Below, in pieces: positions 3,772 through 38,520 of a stretch of 64,000 nucleotides of DNA (its first letter is position 1; every line of letters starts with the position of its first letter). The position numbers were made by a program, and so were the translations under genes. The DNA is from Escherichia phage chee24, in sequence record NC_047885.1; one strand, given 5' to 3'. Below the pieces are notes generated by a model. It was given only the letters and a program-made list of their open reading frames with translations, searched no databases and was not told where the DNA came from.

Positions 3772-3859
3772 TGGTGGGCGTTAATGGAGTCGAACCACTC
3801 GAGTCGCAATGACCAGGGATTTACAATCCCCTCCGCTACCACTTACGGAATAAACGCCC
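3772..3859 (-). tRNA. tRNA-Tyr (anticodon GUA), long variable arm, CCA encoded
   Basis: Acceptor GGGCGTT/AACGCCC, anticodon stem GGGGA/TCCCT with loop TTGTAAA, 88-nt length with extra arm. Confidence 0.6.
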
Positions 3860-3987
3860 ATATTTAGAAGCATTCAAATACTTGTTTAAACACTTTTAAA
3901 TATGTTTCCGAATTAGATAACTATTATACCAAGTTTTAAGGCACTGAGCAAGTCAAATTTTAAAGAACTTGCTCAGTGCTGTATTAG

Positions 3988-4263
3988 TTAGTCGAACTTA
4001 GGAGTGATAGTTAAGGAGAACGGAAGTTCGAAAACTTCTTCGCCCTCATTACTAACGGTAACTACACGACCTTTAAGTTCAGACATTAAAATATCAATAT
4101 CAGCTTTTGCATCTGGAGCCATGCCAGCTTCAATACATTTAGCTTTAACTTCCGGTAAAAGCTCTACGTTATAGAGATAGAGCCACTCAATCTCACCTTC
4201 CCAGTCTTCCCAGGATTTGCAGATTGCACTTTCAATACCAGTTGCTACAACACGATTTTGCAT
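3988..4263 (-). CDS. hypothetical protein (91 aa)
   Basis: ORF with promoter-like TTGCCT-18-TATAAT (minus sense) at about 4290-4345 upstream. Confidence 0.55.
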   Translation of the reverse strand: MQNRVVATGIESAICKSWEDWEGEIEWLYLYNVELLPEVKAKCIEAGMAPDAKADIDILMSELKGRVVTVSNEGEEVFELPFSLTITPKFD

Positions 4264-4353
4264 TAATTAACTCCTTCATCAATTTATATAACTATTATAC
4301 CAGAAATTTAAAGTAAAAGGCAAGTACATTTTTAAAAATTCTGTTTGGAGGAG

Positions 4354-4560
4354 CTAAACTCCAGATTTTTCGGCCAAGTCTAGACTAATAAGAGTTATAG
4401 CCATAATTGCTGCACCGTGTTCTTTTTCTCCGGTGTTTTTAGCAGAGTCTATAATATCCTTAATCTGTTCGTAATAACTTTTTACTTCTTGTTCAATGCC
4501 TGCCTCGGCTATCATGCCTTTAGCCATGAATCGTTGCATGGTAATTTCAGGATTAGCCAT
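4354..4560 (-). CDS. hypothetical protein (68 aa)
   Basis: ORF; start overlaps the stop of the 4553-4720 ORF. Confidence 0.5.
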   Translation of the reverse strand: MANPEITMQRFMAKGMIAEAGIEQEVKSYYEQIKDIIDSAKNTGEKEHGAAIMAITLISLDLAEKSGV

Positions 4561-4720
4561 GTTGTTTCTCCAGTTTCATTTTTAATAGTTTACAGATGAA
4601 ATCAACGTCTTCATCTGTGCCTAAGTCTCTATCCTCAAGGGTCGCCTTGAAGTTTTTCGTCAATTCCATGAGGATGACTTCCCTAGAACGACGTGTTGGC
4701 GGAGGTGGATGTCTATACAT
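4553..4720 (-). CDS. small hypothetical protein (55 aa)
   Basis: Unlisted ORF below the track cutoff, coupled to the downstream gene. Confidence 0.35.
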   Translation of the reverse strand: MYRHPPPPTRRSREVILMELTKNFKATLEDRDLGTDEDVDFICKLLKMKLEKQHG

Positions 4721-4735
4721 CTTATTTCCTTAATT

Positions 4736-4812
4736 TGGTAGGGGTGGTGGGATTCGAACCCACAAAACCTGAATTTTAAGTCCAGTACCTATGCCAATTC
4801 GATTACACCCCC
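4736..4812 (-). tRNA. tRNA with anticodon UAA (Leu-like, but short variable loop)
   Basis: Acceptor GGGGGTG/CACCCCT, T-arm GTGGG-TTCGAAT-CCCAC, anticodon stem CTGGA/TTCAG with loop CTTAAAA. Confidence 0.5.
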
Positions 4813-5107
4813 ATGTAATCAGTTTATTAGTTGATACATATTATAGCCTAAAGAAAACCCTACTACTAATCCTACGAACCAACCAATATAATAATCTTTT
4901 AATTTCACGGGTGTCAACCTCGTTCAATATCTAGAGAAATACCACAGGTAGGATTAATGCCTGTGCCTTTGCACGTCGGACAAACCCAGATATTACAGAA
5001 TGTATCCCCTGCTTCTGCATCAGAACTTTTCCAACTCCTAGACAGTTAGGACAGGCACATTCTTCTAGCTCTTGCTTGAGTTCTTGAAACTTAGACATAT
5101 AGTTTCC

Positions 5108-5296
5108 TTATTCAATTACTTTTGAGGCTTCAAGGGAGTCGATATAGTGTACGTTTTCTACCATGATCATATAATCTGCCACTTTATCCATAGCCTGAGC
5201 TTCAGAGGTAGCCCTGGCTAACCTATATCCTTTTTTATATTCATCCGGGTATTCCCTATCTGGAATAAACACAACACAAACTAGGTATAGTTCCAC
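5108..5296 (-). CDS. hypothetical protein (62 aa)
   Basis: ORF in the minus-strand series. Confidence 0.4.
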   Translation of the reverse strand: MELYLVCVVFIPDREYPDEYKKGYRLARATSEAQAMDKVADYMIMVENVHYIDSLEASKVIE

Positions 5297-5317
5297 TTGT
5301 AACCTCTCTAATCAAGA

Positions 5318-5395
5318 TGGTGGCTCCCCGAGGATTCGAACCTACGTACCTTCCGGTTATGAGCCGGATGCTCATACCATATGAGCTTGAGAACC
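5318..5395 (-). tRNA. tRNA-Met or Ile2 (anticodon CAU), CCA encoded
   Basis: Acceptor GGTTCTC/GGGAGCC, anticodon stem TCCGG/CCGGA with loop CTCATAA; T-stem imperfect. Confidence 0.55.
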
Positions 5396-5401
5396 AGAAT
5401 T

Positions 5402-5490
5402 TGGCGGAAGAAGTGGGAATCGAACCCACAAGGCTATATTTCAAACCGACAGATTAGCAATCTGCTGCAATACCGTTATGCTATTCTTCC
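5402..5490 (-). tRNA. tRNA-Ser (anticodon GCU), long variable arm, CCA encoded
   Basis: Acceptor GGAAGAA/TTCTTCC, anticodon stem GCAGA/TCTGT with loop TTGCTAA, T-arm GTGGG-TTCGATT-CCCAC, 89 nt. Confidence 0.6.
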
Positions 5491-5505
5491 GAATTTATAA
5501 GATAT

Positions 5506-5534
5506 ATTATATTAGAAATTTAGCTTCATAGCAA
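5506..5534 (-). promoter_or_regulatory. sigma70-like early promoter (minus sense TTGCTA-17-TATAAT) upstream of tRNA-Ser
   Basis: Plus-strand ATTATA 5506-5511 and TAGCAA 5529-5534; same conserved promoter family. Confidence 0.55.
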
Positions 5535-6030
5535 GAAAATTTTTCAAGTTTTCGGTAGACATCTCATCCACATCTACAGGAGAAACAAATCCATTTAATT
5601 GTCTAGCAAATTTTTCACCAGCAGGATCATTATCCCCAACAGCTACCAATTTAAAAGGTAGTAATTTCAATTGCTTTAACAACGCTTTTCCTGGAGAAGA
5701 ACCCAACATTGCCAGGGCTGGATAACCAGCGTTATGTAATGCTACGGCCTTAAATACAGATTCCGCAACCAATACTACTTTTTCATCCCCATTGAGAGTT
5801 TCCAGCCCCCATACACACTGTGTAGTAGAATAAGTAAAATACTTAGCTTCAAAAGGAGATTTACCATGACCTTTTGGAGCAGAAGGATTATAAGTCTGAT
5901 AGCCTCTCAACATCCCAGAGAAGTCATACAATGGGACTGTTAGCCATCCTTCCGGACTTAACCAGCAATGATATTTATCTGTATCAAACCCTCTAGATAA
6001 GAGATGTTCTGTTAGTTCATCAACAGTCAT
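5512..6030 (-). CDS. TOPRIM-domain protein, primase-like paralog lacking a zinc finger (172 aa)
   Basis: VVLVAESVFKAVAL and VAVGDNDPAG motifs (Glu plus DxD) align with the TOPRIM region of the primase at 37630-38520. Confidence 0.55.
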   Translation of the reverse strand: MTVDELTEHLLSRGFDTDKYHCWLSPEGWLTVPLYDFSGMLRGYQTYNPSAPKGHGKSPFEAKYFTYSTTQCVWGLETLNGDEKVVLVAESVFKAVALHNAGYPALAMLGSSPGKALLKQLKLLPFKLVAVGDNDPAGEKFARQLNGFVSPVDVDEMSTENLKNFLAMKLNF

Positions 6031-6058
6031 ATTAGATTCCTCTCAAATTTATAAATAT

Positions 6059-6087
6059 ATTATACAGAGGATTTAGCATTCAAGCAA
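6059..6087 (-). promoter_or_regulatory. sigma70-like early promoter (minus sense TTGCTT-17-TATAAT) for 5512-6030
   Basis: Plus-strand ATTATA 6059-6064 and AAGCAA 6082-6087. Confidence 0.55.
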
Positions 6088-6165
6088 TTGAATTTTTTAA
6101 CTTTTTAGAGGAAAATCACAGGATGCTTACGGGTAGCAGGTAAGTGGTCAGGACCGAAATTTGTG

Positions 6166-6195
6166 ACCCCACTAAAAATCTGGGGTCAATTTTTA
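6166..6195 (+). terminator. rho-independent terminator-like hairpin at the 5' edge of the plus-strand cassette
   Basis: Stem GACCCCA/TGGGGTC with 9-nt loop, followed by AATTTTTA. Confidence 0.5.
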
Positions 6196-6203
6196 AAGAC
6201 CCC

Positions 6204-6232
6204 TTGACATTTTTGCCGGGGTAGTGTAAAGT
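6204..6232 (+). promoter_or_regulatory. sigma70-like promoter (TTGACA-17-TAAAGT) for the plus-strand cassette
   Basis: Consensus -35 at 6204-6209, 17-bp spacer, -10 TAAAGT 6227-6232, AGGAGG RBS at 6280. Confidence 0.6.
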
Positions 6233-6295
6233 ATATGTTATGGATGAGTGATCAAAGAGACACACATTTTCTATATACTAGGAGGTGTCAAAAAA

Positions 6296-7275
6296 TGACA
6301 GAAGAAGTAGCTAAGAGTCCTGAAACCGTCGCTAGCGTAGCAGCAGAACTGCATCGTCACGAGGAATCAGATAAGAAAAAGTGGGAGAAAGTCAAAGCCT
6401 ACGAAGAAGAACATCGTGAACACGATGATAAAGATGAAGAAGATGACGATGATGAACATTGTCATAAATATGGAAAACATAAAATGCAAGAACCAGTAAA
6501 CGTATTTACTAATGGCTTCCCTGGCATGGGTGCATTCCCAGCTAACGCAAGTGCTTTCGGTGGAGAAGGTATGGGTCTATTCGGAGCTATCCTAATCGGT
6601 GCTCTATTAACAGGCGGATTTGGTGGTTTTGGTGGTTTTGGCCGTGGTGCTGGCGTTGCCGCTGAAGGGACTGCTGTGGACGCGATCCTTTCTAACCAAG
6701 ATACTGCAAGTATTCTAGCTGCAATCAATACTACTCGTACAGAAGCTAACCAGGGCACTGGGGCTGTTCTAAGCGCAGTAAACGGTGTGGGAGCTGCTCA
6801 AGCTGCTAGCACTCAGCAAGTTCTGACTACTATCTACGGTACAGGTGCTAATCTGTCAAACCAGATCTGTGCTGAAACTCGTAACGTTATTCAGGGTCAG
6901 TTCGATCTTTCTCGTCAGATGGATCAATCTTTCGCTGCTAACCAGATCGCACGTGCTCAAGATAAGTTTGACTCTGCTCAGATTGCTTTCCAGCAGTCTA
7001 TTCAGACCAATAACCAGTTTGCCGCTGTTCAGGCTCAGATGTGTGCTAACCAGAATGCTATAGAGCGTCAGCTTGCTGAATGTTGCTGTGAACTTCAGAC
7101 TGCGATCGCTGGTGTAACTACTGCGCGTATCCAGGACGAACTGAATGAATGCCGTCTGCGTGAAGCAATCGCTCAAGGTAGTGGTGCTAACGGTCAGGTA
7201 ATTAACCAAATCGCTGTAAGTCTTGGTGCTATCACTCAGACTCTGGCTGGTCTGCAGGCTAAACTGCCGGCTTAA
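6296..7275 (+). CDS. hypothetical protein (326 aa): acidic N-terminus, Gly-rich hydrophobic segment, Gln/Ala-rich C-terminal half
   Basis: Track ORF 6235-7275 trimmed to the ATG at 6296 behind AGGAGG; segment GMGLFGAILIGALLTGGFGGFGGFG looks like a glycine-zipper membrane helix; codons look more GC-rich than neighbours. Confidence 0.6.
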
Positions 7276-7296
7276 AATTAAGGGGAGGAGCCCATT

Positions 7297-7713
7297 ATGA
7301 GTAAATATGGTTTTGTAAACAACGGATTTAATCAACAAATGGGCTCCCAGCAGCCCGTTCCGGGTCTGGATAATCCTTACCTACAACAGTTGCAACAGCG
7401 TTTAGCAGAAGCGCAACAGATGCAGCAACAACTCCAGCAAAACCCTGGAAGTGTGAGTCCTATGCAAATGATGCAGCAAATGAGCGGGCAGTCGCAAATG
7501 CCTCAACAAATGCAGCAACAGGTGCCTCAGCAGCAAGTTCAGCAACAAACCCAACAACCGCAGGTTTCTGCGGAAGGACAGGCAGTACTAGCTCTTTTCG
7601 AAGATTTCGCAAAGACAGAGGATGGGAAACAGCTTGTATCACTTATGGGTAAGTTTAATAGCTTCTGCCAAAGCCAGGTTGCAAAAGCTCAAAATGGTGA
7701 TAATAACTCCTAA
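7297..7713 (+). CDS. Gln-rich low-complexity protein (138 aa)
   Basis: ATG behind GGGGAGGAG RBS; long QQ(M/L)QQ tracts. Confidence 0.55.
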   Translation: MSKYGFVNNGFNQQMGSQQPVPGLDNPYLQQLQQRLAEAQQMQQQLQQNPGSVSPMQMMQQMSGQSQMPQQMQQQVPQQQVQQQTQQPQVSAEGQAVLALFEDFAKTEDGKQLVSLMGKFNSFCQSQVAKAQNGDNNS

Positions 7714-8038: not shown

Positions 8039-8986
8039 TTACTTGTTACGCATATCCATAATCATCTGGCCATCATAACCAGTGCCAACCACAGTCTGCG
8101 GTACACCACCTTGATACTTCTGAGCACGAATCATTTCAACTTCTAGTTGCTTCCAGCGAATCATCTCAGGAGTAATGGTACGTTGCAGAGCAGCGTTAGC
8201 TTCAGCTTCTTTCTTAGCTGCATACAGTTTAGCATCTGCATCACGTTCGTTTGCAATAGCTTGGTTGTTACGAGCTTCACGATCTGCTTCTGCTTGTTTA
8301 ACCTTCTGCTGTGCTTCTTGTTCAACGCGAGCTAATTCAGCTTTCGCAGCATTAACTTGTTCTTCGCGAACTTTGGTATTCTGTACCTGTTCCATAATTA
8401 CCGGTGGCAATGTAATATCCTGAAGGAACACTTGCTTAACTGTGTAACCATAGGGGCGTGCATACTCTTCAACTTCCTGTTGAATTGCAGTTTGCAATTG
8501 TGCTTGAATTTTAGCATCAAACAAATCTTGTGCTTTAGGTACAGACTTACCAAACTCACGAATAGTAGACAGTAATTTTTCAGTTACATACTTATCTAGA
8601 GCCTGATCTTGAGTACCCGCATTAATACGGTTGATCGGTGCCTTAGAACCATCAAACTGCAACATAACAGTCAGGTCAACAGTGGATTTAAACTTATCCT
8701 GGCTAGGAACCTGAAGTTTATCTAATTTTACAGCAATATCTTTTGTACTAAAAGTATCGAAAGATGCAAATGGGTTTACAAGATGGAAACCAGGTAATAC
8801 TGGGTTAGGATCTACTTTACCTAGAAATGTTTGGGTTTTAACCGTACCATCAGAAACAATAGTATATGAATTAAAAGCTAGGATTAAACCTGCTAAACCA
8901 ACTACAGCACCAATACTCCAACGTTTAATAGTGCGAATTACTTTTTGCTCAGAAGTCAGTTCTTTCATATTTTTAGTATTAGACAT
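8039..8986 (-). CDS. SPFH/band-7 (prohibitin/HflC-like) membrane protein (315 aa)
   Basis: N-terminal membrane anchor (WSIGAVVGLAGLILAF), SPFH-like core, long Ala/Glu/Gln-rich coiled-coil C-terminus. Confidence 0.65.
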   Translation of the reverse strand: MSNTKNMKELTSEQKVIRTIKRWSIGAVVGLAGLILAFNSYTIVSDGTVKTQTFLGKVDPNPVLPGFHLVNPFASFDTFSTKDIAVKLDKLQVPSQDKFKSTVDLTVMLQFDGSKAPINRINAGTQDQALDKYVTEKLLSTIREFGKSVPKAQDLFDAKIQAQLQTAIQQEVEEYARPYGYTVKQVFLQDITLPPVIMEQVQNTKVREEQVNAAKAELARVEQEAQQKVKQAEADREARNNQAIANERDADAKLYAAKKEAEANAALQRTITPEMIRWKQLEVEMIRAQKYQGGVPQTVVGTGYDGQMIMDMRNK

Positions 8987-9020: not shown

Positions 9021-9095
9021 TGGCCGAGGTGACAGGATTCGAACCTGCATAAAGGAATTTAGAAGACTCCTGCCTCTCCCTTAGACTACACCCCG
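9021..9095 (-). tRNA. tRNA-Arg (anticodon UCU), CCA encoded
   Basis: Acceptor CGGGGTG/CACCTCG, anticodon stem GGAGT/ATTCC with loop CTTCTAA, T-arm GCAGG-TTCGAAT-CCTGT. Confidence 0.6.
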
Positions 9096-9597
9096 TTTAA
9101 GTATTTTTAAGAACTCTCGTAAAAACTCTTAAAAATACAGACGATACCGGGAGAGTCATAAGTCTCACTCATTAAGTATTTCAAGACAAAATACAGTAAC
9201 GTCTATTATTTTCCAGTTTAAGTCAAGGTGACTTAGTGGTTATGTCCTGCGGTATACTGAGGACTAGGTTAGGTTAGGGTCATGACTCCCCACCTTTTTG
9301 CTGCTACTCAACAGGAGTTATCGCGAATTACCTGTGCTATTGTGCACCATTAGTGGCATCTCTCATGCCAGCATTTCCCACTTTGTGGATAGTTTGAAAA
9401 ACTACTCCGATATGGAGAAAGAACTTCACTATCCTAGAATACCTTCTAAAGTTCTTCTTTAGCCTGGACATAGTTAAATCGTAATAAAACTATTCAGCAG
9501 ACTGGTTGGTTAGTCTGGAACCAACTACCGCGTGGTTTAGGCAGTGCGCAACTAACCTCGGAAGCTTTTACATTAAAAGCACCAGTTATCCAGTTCT

Positions 9598-9670
9598 TAC
9601 CGACCGTAGGATTCGAACCTACATCTTCCACCAGTTACGGCTTGATAATACCGTTTTATACTAGATCGGC
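9598..9670 (-). ncRNA. tRNA-like element (canonical acceptor stem and T-arm, irregular core)
   Basis: Acceptor GCCGATC/GGTCGGT and T-arm GTAGG-TTCGAAT-CCTAC; no standard anticodon arm identified. Confidence 0.3.
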
Positions 9671-9893
9671 AGTGTTACTACATAAGTGATTTCCACACCC
9701 CACTATCAGTAAATTAGAGAAGAGTTTAGGGGAGAGGTTTCAGACGCCCCATTTTACACGTTCTAGCCACTAACCGGGATTGCCGCCCCCTGTGTACTAG
9801 TTTTCCAACTAACCCACCGACTCTATTCAATGCGCTCCGGTTGGGATTCTGCACTCAGCGTAATCGGCTCGCTGTTCTCTAATTTATGAATAT

Positions 9894-36095: not shown

Positions 36096-36130
36096 AAGGG
36101 GAGGGGGCTATGCTCCTTCCCCTTTTTGCA
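36096..36130 (+). terminator. rho-independent terminator after 35311-36078
   Basis: Stem AAGGGGAGG/CCTTCCCCTT followed by TTTTG. Confidence 0.6.
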
Positions 36131-36160
36131 TTTAGAAGGCACGAAAGCGTGCAAAGGAGA

Positions 36161-37633
36161 ATGACCTTGTTTAACGTGCAAGCTGTAGTGTTGAAGATGC
36201 TTCTAGCTTCCGAACAGAAGCAAATAGCATTGGAAACATTCTCAAAACTGCATAAAGATCATTTTAATGACGCTTTCTCCTCAATTTACCAAGCCGTCCA
36301 GAATTATTATAAAAAATATAACACAATGCCGTCCATTGACGCACTGATGCTTGAGGCTAATAGGAACGCCCGCCTTTCTCAAGCTCTAGTCGTTTTAGCT
36401 AACACTCAAATTCCAGAAGTTAGCATGGAACAGGCACTTGAAGTCCTAGAAGCCGAGTATACACAGGATTTATTCCTGAAGCTTCTAGAAACAGACGTGC
36501 TTCAAGATTTAACAATGCTGGATCAGGGAGAAATTCTTAACCGAGTTGCCTCCCTTCACTTAAAATTAGAAGAGAAAGTAACGAATACTGGAAAAGTATT
36601 CAACGCAGATAACATGCGTATTTTCCAGAGAGAAGAAGATACCAAACTGAACTTAATCGCTCTTGGTATTTGTAATGAGTTCGACGCTCAAATTGGTTTA
36701 GCTCGCACAGAAACGTTACTGCTTGGTGGTTGGCGTGGTACTGGTAAATCCATTATCTGTTCAAACATACAGGTTCAGCAATATTTGAATGGAGATATTG
36801 CTCCATACTTCTCAATTGAGATGAAAGAACATGAAGTATTTAGACGTAATCTAGCTATGTTAGCTGGTGTATCAGCACTAGCAATGCGTAATAATACTCT
36901 AGAAGGTGCAGCTCTGTTGAGATTAGCCAGAACTAGAGCTAGGATGTTTAACGGTGGTGAAGAGCTTTTCGATAACTTCGTTAAACAGTACACAATGGCT
37001 AAGATGAGTGATTTCTACGATATGGAAAGTAAGCTAATAGAAGGGTATGAATTACATACTCCTATGATTATTGTTTATGATCCTGAGCTGTCTATTACAA
37101 CAGTTGACGTAGAATTAAATAAATTAGTTGCTAGATATGGGGATAAAGTTACAGTAGCTTTACTGGACTATATTAACCAAACCCGACTTCCAGATTCTAA
37201 AACCATTGATATGTATGACTGGAAAGAACAGATGGTTGTTAGCTCGTCTTTCAAATCTATCTGCCAGAAACATAACGTGGCTGGTGTAGCTCCTTACCAG
37301 ATTGATCAAGATGGTAGAACACGTATGTCAAAGGGGATTCTTGATTCCGCAGACATGGCTGCTAATCTTAATGCTGCAAAAGCGGATAATGGTCAAGGTG
37401 CTATTATGTTTGACTTCGTTAAGACTCGTTCTTCTGATAGCGTGAAGTTTATGCCTAAAATGAACTGGGAAACCCTGCGGATGGATAACACTACCAACCT
37501 AGCAATGGAAGATATATCTCAAATGGAAGCTGAGTTCGTTATCCCTATTGAGAAGGATAAGCCGGCTCAATCTAAACGTGCTAAGAAAGACAAAGCTGAA
37601 AATTCAACAGGTGAACAGGCCAGCGATATATGA
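36161..37633 (+). CDS. DnaB-family replicative helicase-like protein
   Basis: Walker A GWRGTGKS and SIEM (DnaB SLEM-like) motif; start moved to the ATG behind AAAGGAGA, past the terminator. Confidence 0.65.
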   Translation: MTLFNVQAVVLKMLLASEQKQIALETFSKLHKDHFNDAFSSIYQAVQNYYKKYNTMPSIDALMLEANRNARLSQALVVLANTQIPEVSMEQALEVLEAEYTQDLFLKLLETDVLQDLTMLDQGEILNRVASLHLKLEEKVTNTGKVFNADNMRIFQREEDTKLNLIALGICNEFDAQIGLARTETLLLGGWRGTGKSIICSNIQVQQYLNGDIAPYFSIEMKEHEVFRRNLAMLAGVSALAMRNNTLEGAALLRLARTRARMFNGGEELFDNFVKQYTMAKMSDFYDMESKLIEGYELHTPMIIVYDPELSITTVDVELNKLVARYGDKVTVALLDYINQTRLPDSKTIDMYDWKEQMVVSSSFKSICQKHNVAGVAPYQIDQDGRTRMSKGILDSADMAANLNAAKADNGQGAIMFDFVKTRSSDSVKFMPKMNWETLRMDNTTNLAMEDISQMEAEFVIPIEKDKPAQSKRAKKDKAENSTGEQASDI

Positions 37634-38520
37634 GTAGAATAACAGAACTACTTGATCTGAAAGGCATTGAATATAAAGACACAGGTGGGGACATCCTCAT
37701 CTGTTGTCTCAATCCAGATCATGATGATAAACACCCAAGTTTGCGTATTGACCCTGAAACAGGTATTATGCACTGCTTGAGTTGTGGCTTCGGTAAAGGT
37801 ATACCGAGCATTTACCATTATTTTAATGAGACTCAGTACCGACAGTCCCCAAGGCTATCGCAAGTACGTAAAAAGATTTCAGAGATTAGGAATGGATCAA
37901 CGAATCTTGCAATTCCTGAATCTGCTTGCCTTTTCGAAGGTGATTTCCGAGGTATAAGTTCTAAGACCTTGAAGAAATATTTTGCTTTCCAACACCAAGC
38001 AGACTGGGAAGGCAGAATTGTATTCCCAATCACAGATGCTGTTGGACGCAATATCCTATTTTTGGGTCGTTCTATAAACAGTTCTGCCCCTCCTAAATAC
38101 TTAGTAAAACCAAAACAAGTTTCACCACCAATTTTTCCTGTACGATATAATACTCCAGTTCTTATTCTAGTTGAAGGCATCTTTGATATGCTGAACCTAG
38201 AGGATAATGGTATAGACTATACTTCTTGCTGCTTTGGTACACATCAGTTTACTTCGGATAACATTGCAGATAAGTTCAGTCCTTATATTATTGCCGGTGT
38301 AAAAGTTGTTGTTATCTTACTAGATAATGATGCTTCTGGTAGTAAAGCTGCACAAGCATTGGCCAAGCTAATTCGTACAAAAACGCGTTTAACACCTGTA
38401 GTTGCTAACTTTCTTCTGCCTGAAGGTAAAGACCCTGGTGACTTAAATAAAGAAGAGATTGATATGTTAGCAAAACGTATTGAAATTTTAGTTGCTGAAT
38501 CGCTTAAAGATTTGGTATAA
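37630..38520 (+). CDS. DNA primase (zinc-binding domain plus TOPRIM)
   Basis: CLNPDHDDKHPS...HCLSCG zinc motif; TOPRIM LVEGIFDML...LLDNDASG; ATGA coupling. Confidence 0.75.
   Translation: MSRITELLDLKGIEYKDTGGDILICCLNPDHDDKHPSLRIDPETGIMHCLSCGFGKGIPSIYHYFNETQYRQSPRLSQVRKKISEIRNGSTNLAIPESACLFEGDFRGISSKTLKKYFAFQHQADWEGRIVFPITDAVGRNILFLGRSINSSAPPKYLVKPKQVSPPIFPVRYNTPVLILVEGIFDMLNLEDNGIDYTSCCFGTHQFTSDNIADKFSPYIIAGVKVVVILLDNDASGSKAAQALAKLIRTKTRLTPVVANFLLPEGKDPGDLNKEEIDMLAKRIEILVAESLKDLV

What the first reader, a model, noticed from the sequence alone, without database searches (positions are those of the whole stretch)
5512..6030. TOPRIM-only paralog of the phage primase in the tRNA region
The 172-aa protein aligns by eye with the TOPRIM half of the primase at 37630-38520 (VVLVAESVFKAVAL versus VLILVEGIFDMLNL; VAVGDNDPAG versus ILLDNDASG) but has no zinc-binding domain. 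A stand-alone TOPRIM could be a nuclease, a primase regulator or a decoy.
Basis: seen in the sequence. Interest (0 to 1): 0.5.

Follow-up and report, generated by a model that had tools for sequence, protein, structure and literature searches.

The report
Known anti-retron protein Rad (primase-derived)
The 172-residue protein is the T5-family protein Rad, a zinc-finger-less copy of a whole primase catalytic core that phages use to disarm bacterial retron defences rather than to replicate DNA; the gene is already described, but its chemistry is still unsolved.

Summary
The ORF at 5512-6030 (-) is real and does carry a TOPRIM domain. It is 98% identical to T5 ORF071 and 97% identical to SP15 ORF75. 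That gene was first annotated as a DNA primase and later reported as Rad (retron anti-defense), which neutralises several retrons and lowers their msr-msd RNA and msDNA.

"TOPRIM-only" is wrong. A confident AlphaFold model superposes over its whole length on the T7 gp4 and DnaG RNA-polymerase domains, meaning the N-terminal subdomain plus TOPRIM. Only the zinc-binding and helicase-binding parts are missing.

It is not a recent paralog of the phage's primase. It is as close to E. coli DnaG as to that primase. It belongs to a separate family of at least 445 clusters found in unrelated phages and phage-plasmids, and the phages examined have their own primase. About 270 records carry a close copy, against about 440 with the replicative primase.

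The catalytic Glu, DxD and Asp are conserved, so an enzyme is likely. Direct cleavage of retron ncRNA is the leading mechanism but is unproven.

Verdict: already known, with modest interest.

The parts
5512..6030 (-). Rad (retron anti-defense) coding sequence, 172 aa plus stop. It is the ortholog of T5 ORF071 (AAX12008.1) and SP15 ORF75 (HWA82_gp147).
   Evidence: ORF list. 98% identity to the T5 protein and 97% to the SP15 protein. PHROG 849 E 1.1e-61.
5791..6030 (-). Residues 1-80: N-terminal subdomain of a DnaG/T7-type RNA-polymerase domain. It comprises helix 3-12 and strands 30-35, 41-47 and 64-68. Family-specific conserved residues are R13, G43, Y44, Q45, Y47, K53, R/K63, Y64, T66, W74, G75 and E77.
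   Evidence: hhalign to the window primase and to E. coli DnaG covers residues 27-80. AlphaFold pLDDT is above 90 throughout. Conservation table.
5515..5790 (-). Residues 81-172: TOPRIM domain plus C-terminal helix.
   Evidence: Pfam Toprim_2, residues 88-149. Profile hits to DnaG structures. RNase M5 TOPRIM matches only this part of the model.
5749..5763 (-). Motif IV codons E90-S-V-F-K94, corresponding to EGxxD in primases. The Glu is kept, and the Asp is replaced by Lys in this clade.
   Evidence: Sequence read. Alignment with T5 and T7 primases. E90 is present in 123 of 124 family members.
5626..5634 (-). Motif V codons D133-N-D135 (DxD).
   Evidence: D135H weakens anti-retron activity in the preprint.
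5563..5574 (-). Motif VI codons D153-V-D155-E156. D153 aligns with DnaG D345 and T7 D237. D155 co-varies with K94.
   Evidence: E156H weakens anti-retron activity in the preprint.
6039..6044 (-). Shine-Dalgarno-like GAGAGG, 8 nt upstream of the ATG.
   Evidence: Read directly from the sequence.
6054..6083 (-). Weak sigma-70-like promoter match (TTGAAT-18-TATATT, 9 of 12) upstream of the gene. It is a candidate only.
   Evidence: Consensus scan. The number of hits in the region is no higher than in shuffles.

Best explanation
**Identity and role (shown in the literature, orthology shown here).** The gene is Rad, the retron anti-defense protein of T5-like phages. It is an accessory early gene in the dispensable tRNA-rich anti-defence island. 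Its expression lets the phage escape several retrons (Eco2/Ec67, Eco7/Ec78, Ec83, Ec48, Se72). It lowers the retron's msr-msd non-coding RNA and the msDNA made from it, but not the RT or effector transcripts.

**Anatomy (shown here).** Rad is a complete minimal DnaG/T7-type primase catalytic core, made of the N-terminal subdomain plus TOPRIM. It has no zinc-binding domain and no helicase-binding domain. It has a conserved but remodelled active site.

**Mechanism (inferred).**
- The primase-type nucleic-acid cleft binds a feature shared by all retrons. This is either the structured msr-msd RNA or its RNA-DNA junction.
- The metal-binding TOPRIM centre (E90, D133, D135, D153, D155) then cuts the ncRNA.
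- No msDNA is made, so the retron sensor cannot assemble.

The confidence of 0.6 is a compromise for the whole statement. Identity as Rad is near certain. Direct catalytic cleavage of the ncRNA is about 0.4.
For: **Identity**
- 97% identity to SP15 ORF75 and 98% to T5 AAX12008.1, with the same position directly upstream of tRNA-Ser and tRNA-Met.
- The mutated residues in the preprint (R13, P33, I88, D135, E156) fall on R13, P33, V88, D135 and E156 of this ORF.
- PMC11555353 shows that ORF75 is the determinant for evading retrons Eco2 and Eco7.
- PMC12673091 uses SP15m, which lacks Rad and tRNA-Tyr.

**Anatomy**
- The AlphaFold model has pLDDT 95.6 and pTM 0.91.
- All Foldseek matches with E below 1e-3 are DnaG-type primase domains (bacterial DnaG, T7 gp4, T4 primosome, human Twinkle). 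T7 gp4 1nui gives TMq 0.69 and rmsd 3.4 Å over the full length. RNase M5 covers only the TOPRIM half, TMq 0.44.
- A profile search of the PDB hits DnaG RNA-polymerase domains at E 2e-6.

**Likely an enzyme**
- E90, D135 and D153 are each at least 90% conserved, and D133 is present in 110 of 124.
- All four acidic residues are present together in 96 of 124 divergent members.
- All 45 members with K/R94 have an acidic residue at 155, while 68 of 74 with D/E94 do not. The count of acidic ligands is therefore preserved.

**Accessory, not replicative**
- About 270 phage records carry a copy at 80% identity or more, against about 440 with the replicative primase.
- Viable phages that lack the tRNA-rich region exist (T5n, SP15m), and BF23 has lost the gene through a separate 4-kb deletion.
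- Every other phage examined has its own primase.
Against: - The evidence for RNA degradation is in vivo only: qPCR and gel levels in a preprint. The peer-reviewed version dropped it and says the mechanism could not be determined.
- No nuclease activity has been shown for any DnaG-type catalytic core.
- In the preprint, single mutants, including the DxD mutant D135H, only reduced activity. Loss of activity needed double mutants. That is unexpected for a strictly catalytic mechanism.
- The whole primase cleft, not just the TOPRIM, is conserved. The basic cluster at K53-55 aligns with the DnaG K229 region. This fits nucleotide or template binding as well as it fits nuclease activity.
Confidence: 0.6

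Rival explanations
1. Rad works without catalysis. The primase cleft binds the retron ncRNA, the msDNA or the RT-ncRNA complex. It either blocks 2'-OH-primed reverse transcription or exposes the RNA to host RNases. The drop in RNA would then be indirect.
For: - In the preprint, single substitutions, including D135H in the DxD motif, only reduced activity. Double mutants were needed to abolish it "regardless of the location".
- The most invariant residues (G43, Y64, G75) lie in the N-terminal nucleic-acid-binding subdomain and not in the metal site.
Against: - The four metal-binding acidic residues are kept together in 96 of 124 members that are only 30-47% identical to each other.
- The K94/D155 swap preserves the acidic count. 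This pattern is hard to explain without catalysis.
- The mutants were tested under arabinose-induced overexpression, which can mask partial loss of function.
Confidence: 0.2
2. Rad is still a nucleotidyl transferase. As a primase core without a zinc finger and without sequence specificity, it would synthesise or extend RNA on retron nucleic acid. One example is extension from the msr 3' end paired to the msDNA 3' end, which resembles a primer-template. Another is priming on single-stranded msDNA. Either would convert the sensor into a form that is degraded or no longer functional.
For: - The full polymerase-domain fold is retained, with best whole-length matches to active primases.
- Counterparts of the primase motifs from the GFGGR region through the TOPRIM motifs are aligned, including a basic cluster at the DnaG K229 position.
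- Some relatives are fused or adjacent to other RNA nucleotidyl transferases. P0086 is Rad plus the CCA-enzyme head domain. Vibrio phages F94, F91 and F97 have a Rad-like gene next to a tRNA nucleotidyltransferase.
Against: - The DnaG Arg221 position is Tyr in 121 of 124 members.
- The metal ligand D269 is Lys in the active T5, SP15 and Privateer-genus proteins.
- From my own knowledge of the T7 literature, not checked here: T7 and DnaG cores without the zinc-binding domain are nearly inactive in templated primer synthesis.
- Extension does not by itself explain the lower msr-msd RNA.
Confidence: 0.15
3. Rad is a second or back-up replicative primase, or a regulator or decoy of the T5 primase-helicase.
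For: - Many genome records annotate it as DNA primase.
- In Jersey-like phages it sits just downstream of, and overlaps, a helicase gene.
Against: - There is no zinc-binding domain and no helicase-interaction domain.
- That neighbouring helicase is SNF2-type, not a replicative DnaB.
- The gene is missing from roughly 40% of T5-like genomes that keep the primase, and it lies in a deletable region.
- It occurs in phages whose replicative primase is of a different type.
- It is only 19% identical to the resident primase.
Confidence: 0.04

Closest known systems
Rad (retron anti-defense): SP15 ORF75 and T5 ORF071. Sources: Azam et al., bioRxiv 10.1101/2023.03.15.532788; Nat Commun 2024, PMC11555353.
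   Same: It is the same gene. Identity is 97-98% over the full length. The genomic position upstream of tRNA-Ser and tRNA-Met is the same. The functionally tested residues are the same.
   Different: Nothing substantive. SP15's record annotates a 17-residue N-terminal extension, giving 189 aa. That extension is closed by a stop codon in this window. Position 88 is Val here and Ile in SP15.
RNA-polymerase domain of T7 gp4 primase (PDB 1NUI) and of bacterial DnaG (1DDE, 1EQN, 3B39, 2AU3, 4E2K).
   Same: The two-subdomain fold is the same over the whole protein. The motif IV Glu, the motif V DxD and the motif VI Asp are the same. The size matches the minimal T7 core.
   Different: - No CHC2 zinc-binding domain, no helicase-binding or helicase domain, and no DnaG C-terminal helical subdomain.
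- DnaG R221 is replaced by Tyr, and D269 by Lys in this clade, with a compensating Asp at 155.
- The gene is dispensable and has a patchy distribution.
RNase M5, a TOPRIM endoribonuclease that matures 5S rRNA (PDB 6Z2B, 6TPQ).
   Same: It has a TOPRIM metal centre that cleaves a structured RNA. It is therefore the best precedent for the proposed chemistry. It is a structural match to Rad's C-terminal half (TMq 0.43-0.46).
   Different: The match covers only about 100 residues. RNase M5 lacks the primase N-terminal subdomain and has its own C-terminal domain. Every primase ranks above it in the fold search.
OLD-family TOPRIM nucleases of defence systems: AriB of PARIS, GajA, P2 Old, and the retron Eco2 effector.
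   Same: They are TOPRIM nucleases acting on RNA or tRNA in phage-host conflict (PMC11464382, PMC12445682, seen).
   Different: They are host-side effectors coupled to ABC ATPases or reverse transcriptases, and they belong to a different TOPRIM branch. None appears among Rad's sequence or fold matches.
Mycoplasma MG010-type truncated DnaG-like proteins (NCBIfam TIGR00646).
   Same: They are DnaG-like proteins lacking the zinc finger. There is a weak hit, E 4.4e-4, over residues 23-148.
   Different: The score of 19.8 bits is far below the 260-bit family cutoff, so Rad is not a member.

Membership tests
Rad (retron anti-defense protein of T5-like phages) | Full-length orthology to SP15 ORF75 and T5 ORF071 | tested here: met
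   BLASTP gives 167/172 identities to SP15 (E 2e-130) and 168/172 to T5 (E 4e-131).
Rad (retron anti-defense protein of T5-like phages) | Location in the tRNA-rich accessory region, directly upstream of tRNA-Ser and tRNA-Met | tested here: met
   tRNA-Ser lies at 5402-5490 and tRNA-Met at 5318-5395, 21 nt after the stop codon. The order is the same in SP15 and T5.
Rad (retron anti-defense protein of T5-like phages) | Presence of the residues whose mutation weakens anti-retron activity (R13, P33, I88, D135, E156) | tested here: met
   R13, P33, D135 and E156 are identical, and position 88 is Val instead of Ile.
Rad (retron anti-defense protein of T5-like phages) | Neutralises retrons and lowers msr-msd RNA and msDNA | not testable with these tools
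   This is an experimental property. It was reported for the SP15, T5 and Proteus Privateer proteins.
DnaG/T7-type DNA primase (functional replicative primase) | TOPRIM domain with Glu, DxD and a third acidic motif | tested here: met
   E90, D133, D135 and D153 are invariant in the alignment with the T5 and T7 primases. Pfam Toprim_2 also hits.
DnaG/T7-type DNA primase (functional replicative primase) | N-terminal subdomain of the RNA-polymerase domain with the basic residues of motifs II and III | tested here: inconclusive
   The fold and motif positions are present. However, DnaG R221 is Tyr in 121 of 124 members, and K229 aligns only to a loose basic cluster at 53-55.
DnaG/T7-type DNA primase (functional replicative primase) | CHC2 zinc-binding domain for template recognition | tested here: not met
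   There is no Zn_ribbon_DnaG hit and there are only two Cys in the protein. The homology to the primase starts at primase residue 127, after its zinc ribbon at residues 4-58.
DnaG/T7-type DNA primase (functional replicative primase) | Helicase-binding domain, or fusion or coupling to a replicative helicase | tested here: not met
   The protein ends at residue 172, right after the TOPRIM domain. The window's DnaB-like helicase (36110-37633) is coupled to the other primase. The helicase next to the Jersey-like homolog is SNF2-type.
DnaG/T7-type DNA primase (functional replicative primase) | Universally kept within the phage lineage (essential) | tested here: not met
   About 270 records have the gene at 80% identity or more, against about 440 for the primase. 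It is absent from BF23, T5n and SP15m.
RNase M5 / stand-alone TOPRIM ribonucleases | Architecture of TOPRIM plus the RNase M5 C-terminal domain, with no primase N-subdomain | tested here: not met
   Foldseek aligns only about 95-105 residues (TMq 0.43-0.46), and these hits rank below 37 primase chains.
OLD-family / AriB TOPRIM nucleases | OLD-type TOPRIM linked to an ABC ATPase partner or domain | tested here: not met
   There is no such Pfam, PHROG or PDB hit. Neither adjacent ORF in the window (6235-7275 and 7297-7713) has a Pfam or NCBIfam family hit, so no ATPase partner was identified.
MG010 DnaG-like protein (TIGR00646) | Score above the NCBIfam cutoff | tested here: not met
   19.8 bits against a cutoff of 260.65.

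The most novel reading that the evidence does not exclude
Rad may not be a simple RNase. It may be a working primase core without a zinc finger, whose substrate is a structured RNA or an RNA-DNA junction.

The family as a whole, at least 445 clusters, would then be a general phage RNA-end processing enzyme. It would act on retron msr-msDNA in enterobacterial phages. Elsewhere it would cooperate with CCA-adding enzymes, RtcB ligase or HAD phosphatases in tRNA or RNA repair. This would be a new biochemical activity for the DnaG fold.

The conserved D94/G155 to K94/D155 swap would mark two catalytic subtypes.
Probability: 0.15. Interest if true: 0.7.

Novelty: already known. Interest (0 to 1): 0.3.

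Why it matters
**For annotation.** Many GenBank and RefSeq records of T5-like, Jersey-like and Proteus phages and of phage-plasmids (several shown) label this gene "DNA primase" or "toprim domain-containing protein". It should be labelled Rad / anti-retron. It should not be counted as part of the replication machinery.

**For biology.** Rad is the only reported broad-spectrum retron inhibitor, and its mechanism is still open. Three results narrow the experiments needed to solve it:
- It is a whole primase catalytic core and not a bare TOPRIM.
- Its metal site is conserved but remodelled.
- It is unrelated in descent to the phage's own primase.

A solved mechanism would also matter for retron-based genome editing, where a specific off-switch would be useful.

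Tried and rejected
- **Single-sequence phmmer against the PDB** gave only chance hits. The family profile was needed.
- **The word-indexed homolog search** found only 7 relatives. The exhaustive HMMER search found 445.
No large-scale neighbourhood statistics could be made, and the contexts are a sample of about 12 loci.
- **"The family is tied to tRNA genes."** Rejected. Of ten non-T5 loci, only one has a tRNA within the flanks.
- **"The family is part of RNA-repair operons."** Not established. These links are only anecdotal:
  - RtcB lies downstream in Erwinia phage Deimos-Minion.
  - A CCA enzyme is adjacent in Vibrio phages and fused in P0086.
  - There is a HAD fusion in P0085.
  - Other loci show unrelated neighbours, such as terminase and portal, DNA methylase, or RecA and a flap nuclease.
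  - Other fusions are to Mom, GNAT, Arr-like, ParB_N and a zinc-finger DUF3268. This looks like shuffling within an accessory or anti-defence island.
- **hhalign against T7 gp4** was weak (probability 37%) and covered only the TOPRIM half. T7 equivalences for the N-subdomain rest on the fold match only.
- **Equivalence of R13 to DnaG R146 (motif I).** I suspected this, but no alignment covered it.
- **The Burroughs and Aravind 2016 RNA-repair survey** is not held in the library, so it could not be checked for a mention of this family.
- **Promoter scan.** Hits are no more frequent than in shuffled sequence.

Full report
**What is in the sequence**

The window is a T5-like phage. Positions 4500-7500 are 100% identical to Bacteriophage T5-like pork27, MF431731. 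The ORF at 5512-6030 on the minus strand encodes 172 aa. It has a GAGAGG ribosome-binding site 8 nt before the ATG, and an in-frame TGA just upstream. The ORF ends 21 nt before tRNA-Ser (5402-5490), which is followed by tRNA-Met (5318-5395). These lie within a run of 15 tRNA genes on the same strand.

**Is it related to the phage primase?**

BLASTP between the ORF and the primase at 37630-38520 is not significant. The best piece is 22 residues at the DxD motif, E 0.081. Family-level evidence is clear, however:
- Pfam Toprim_2 passes its cutoff: E 3.1e-5, residues 88-149.
- PHROG 849, named "DNA primase", matches residues 3-167 at E 1.1e-61.
- An exhaustive HMMER search found 445 cluster representatives at E ≤ 1e-3. 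Most of the 150 best hits listed are stand-alone proteins of 165-190 aa.
- A profile of 124 of them (alignment A1) aligns with the window's primase at probability 96.8% and E 2.9e-10. The alignment covers residues 27-169 of the ORF and 127-284 of the primase, at 19% identity.
- The same profile matches E. coli DnaG slightly better (97.1%, E 5.9e-11). It also hits the DnaG RNA-polymerase-domain structures in the PDB at E about 2e-6.

The homology is therefore real but ancient. This is not a recent duplicate of the resident primase.

**It is not TOPRIM-only**

The alignments begin well before the TOPRIM domain. They cover the primase N-terminal subdomain, namely DnaG F206-P207, the GFGG-R221 motif and the K229-Y-L-N-S-P motif.

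An AlphaFold model built on A1 is highly confident, with mean pLDDT 95.6 and pTM 0.91. In a Foldseek search of the PDB, every match with E below 1e-3 is a DnaG-type primase domain (bacterial DnaG, T7 gp4, the T4 primosome or human Twinkle). T7 gp4 (1nui, 6n9v) superposes over essentially the whole model, with TMq 0.69 and rmsd 3.3-3.4 Å. The TOPRIM-only enzyme RNase M5 covers only about 100 residues, TMq 0.43-0.46.

The protein is therefore a complete minimal primase catalytic core. What it lacks:
- The CHC2 zinc-binding domain. There are only two Cys and no Zn_ribbon_DnaG hit, while the true primase has one at residues 4-58.
- Any helicase-binding part.

**Identity**

The literature search found a preprint (bioRxiv 10.1101/2023.03.15.532788). 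It describes Rad (retron anti-defense) as ORF75 of the T5-like phage SP15. According to the preprint:
- Rad is a small protein in the tRNA-rich region with "primase/helicase and TOPRIM/RNase" domains.
- It neutralises retrons Ec67, Ec78, Ec83, Ec48 and Se72.
- It lowers msr-msd RNA and msDNA, but not the RT or effector transcripts.
- R13E, P33T, I88T, D135H and E156H each weaken its activity.

The window's protein is 97% identical to the SP15 protein and 98% identical to T5 AAX12008.1, which is annotated "DNA primase". Its neighbours are the same. The mutated positions fall exactly on R13, P33, V88, D135 and E156.

Other papers agree:
- The peer-reviewed paper (PMC11555353) confirms that ORF75 is the determinant for escape from retrons Eco2 and Eco7. 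It says its mechanism could not be determined.
- Rad is now scored routinely in anti-defence surveys, for example of phage-plasmids. I confirmed homologs at 41-48% identity on 81 non-mobilizable plasmids of 44-112 kb from Escherichia, Shigella and Acinetobacter.

**Accessory, not replicative**

- Copies at 80% identity or more occur in about 270 phage records, while the replicative primase occurs at that level in about 440.
- BF23, T5n and SP15m lack the gene and are viable.
- Outside T5-like phages, the family appears in genomes that have their own primase. A Jersey-like 42-kb phage has a 766-aa AAA_25 "helicase-primase". The Proteus phage 3H10_20 has a primase/helicase.
- The helicase next to the Jersey-like copy is SNF2-type, not DnaB-type.

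This argues against a back-up primase, a primase subunit or a decoy.

**Active site**

Across 124 members that share 30-47% identity with the query:
- G43, Y64 and G75 are invariant.
- L10, R13, Y47, E90, F93, D135, G138 and D153 are at least 90% conserved.
- E90, D133, D135 and D153 are all present together in 96 of 124. They align with E265, D309, D311 and D345 of DnaG, and with E157, D207, D209 and D237 of T7 gp4.

Two departures from primases stand out:
- DnaG R221 is Tyr in 121 of 124 members.
- The motif IV Asp (DnaG D269) is Lys or Arg in 45 members, including the T5, SP15, Privateer-genus (3H10_20) and Jersey-like proteins, which read AESVFKA or AESIFKA.

Every one of those 45 has an acidic residue at position 155. 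By contrast, 68 of the 74 members with D/E94 do not (Fisher p about 1e-26). This p-value is not corrected for shared ancestry. The two classes are only slightly more similar within themselves (35%) than between (31%). An acidic ligand appears to have moved rather than been lost, which argues for a working metal centre.

**Mechanism**

*Shown by others.* Rad blocks many retrons that have unrelated effectors, and it lowers the ncRNA and msDNA. This points to the shared RT-ncRNA-msDNA module as the target.

*Inferred here.* The primase cleft would bind the structured msr-msd RNA or its RNA-DNA junction, and the TOPRIM centre would cleave it. RNase M5 is the precedent for TOPRIM cleavage of a structured RNA. 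I put this at about 0.4. The reasons for caution:
- The evidence is in vivo only.
- The published paper withdrew the claim.
- The single DxD mutant kept part of the activity.

*Rivals.*
- Non-catalytic binding: about 0.2.
- A retained nucleotidyl-transfer activity on the retron's primer-template-like junction: about 0.15.
- A replicative or regulatory primase role: below 0.05.

**Contexts and fusions**

The tRNA neighbourhood is specific to T5-like phages. Some relatives sit beside or are fused to RNA-end enzymes:
- RtcB lies downstream in Erwinia phage Deimos-Minion.
- A tRNA nucleotidyltransferase is adjacent in Vibrio phages F94, F91 and F97.
- P0086 is a true fusion to a CCA-enzyme head domain, with the HD and tRNA_NucTran2_2 part encoded by the next gene.
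- P0085 is a fusion to a HAD phosphatase.

Other fusions are to Mom, GNAT, Arr-like, ParB_N, a cytidylyltransferase and a DUF3268 zinc finger. Other loci have unrelated neighbours. I read this as shuffling within accessory islands, with a possible but unproven link to RNA processing.

**Verdict**

The feature is already known as Rad. What this analysis adds:
- It is a whole primase core and not a bare TOPRIM.
- It is no closer to the phage's own primase than to E. coli DnaG.
- It has a conserved but remodelled metal site.
- Its "DNA primase" annotation is misleading.

Interest is modest, at 0.3. It rests on the unsolved chemistry.

Noticed in passing
L002 about 3983-4511 (Erwinia phage Deimos-Minion) and L005 about 3992-4500 (Dickeya phage JA33): The Rad-like gene of these jumbo phages is interrupted by a +1 frameshift at the same place in both. 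The site is the loop between VWGLE and the TOPRIM strand VFLTESVF. Both halves stay conserved with intact Glu, DxD and Asp motifs. A TTC/TTT difference between the two phages is synonymous only in the +1 frame. All Erwinia and Dickeya jumbo hits listed were in two pieces. This could be a programmed frameshift or a shared pseudogene.
   Followed up: partly
window 8039-8986 (-), with tRNA-Arg at 9021-9095 (-) just upstream: This 315-aa protein has an SPFH/Band-7 domain (Pfam E 2e-17). It is annotated as hypothetical protein or lipoprotein in relatives. It sits directly after a tRNA gene, two genes from Rad. From memory only, not checked here: SPFH/Band-7 proteins paired with tRNA-like RNAs were proposed as RNA-repair scaffolds by Burroughs and Aravind in 2016.
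   Followed up: partly
window 6235-7275 (+) and 7297-7713 (+): These two genes are transcribed divergently from Rad. One encodes a 346-aa protein with an acidic, His-rich N-terminal part and a Gly-rich stretch. The other encodes a 138-aa protein rich in Gln. Some records annotate them as "cAMP-dependent protein kinase catalytic subunit" or "antitermination protein Q". Pfam gives nothing for the 346-aa protein (the 138-aa one was not run against Pfam). NCBIfam gives nothing for either. Those names look unfounded.
   Followed up: partly
window 3772-3859 (-): This tRNA-Tyr is at the same position in the tRNA order as the SP15 tRNA-Tyr that neutralises retron Eco7 (PMC11555353). ARAGORN calls it, but it is the one tRNA of the region that does not reach the Rfam tRNA gathering score. 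The neighbouring tRNA-Glu call is unusually long, at 94 nt.
   Followed up: no
window 9597-9671 (-): ARAGORN reads this tRNA as tRNA-Ser with anticodon ACT, which is an unusual anticodon. Its Rfam score is low: 34.5 bits against a cutoff of 29.
   Followed up: no
L006 2593-3993 (Stenotrophomonas phage DLP_6): About 1 kb upstream of the Rad-like gene, two genes away, is a 466-aa DUF2828 plus DUF7788 protein. From memory, not verified here, this is a Ro/TROVE-like RNA-binding family. The same locus also has genes annotated as a kinase, a metallophosphoesterase, NAD-salvage enzymes and a tRNA-Arg. It may be an RNA-repair or NAD island.
   Followed up: no
window 4931-5098 (-): This 55-aa ORF has a single CxxCxGxG (DnaJ-type) zinc-finger-like motif, CPNCLGVG. 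It lies about 400 nt downstream of Rad, beyond tRNA-Ser, tRNA-Met and another small ORF. It is not a CHC2 primase zinc ribbon, and SP15 ORF75 alone is sufficient for anti-retron activity. It is unlikely to be a partner of Rad.
   Followed up: no
L008 7931-8500 (SP15 record NC_048627): The SP15 annotation gives Rad 189 aa by starting 17 codons upstream. The preprint quotes 189 aa, but its mutant numbering fits the 172-aa form. In this window the extension is closed by a TGA. The 172-aa start is probably the real one.
   Followed up: yes
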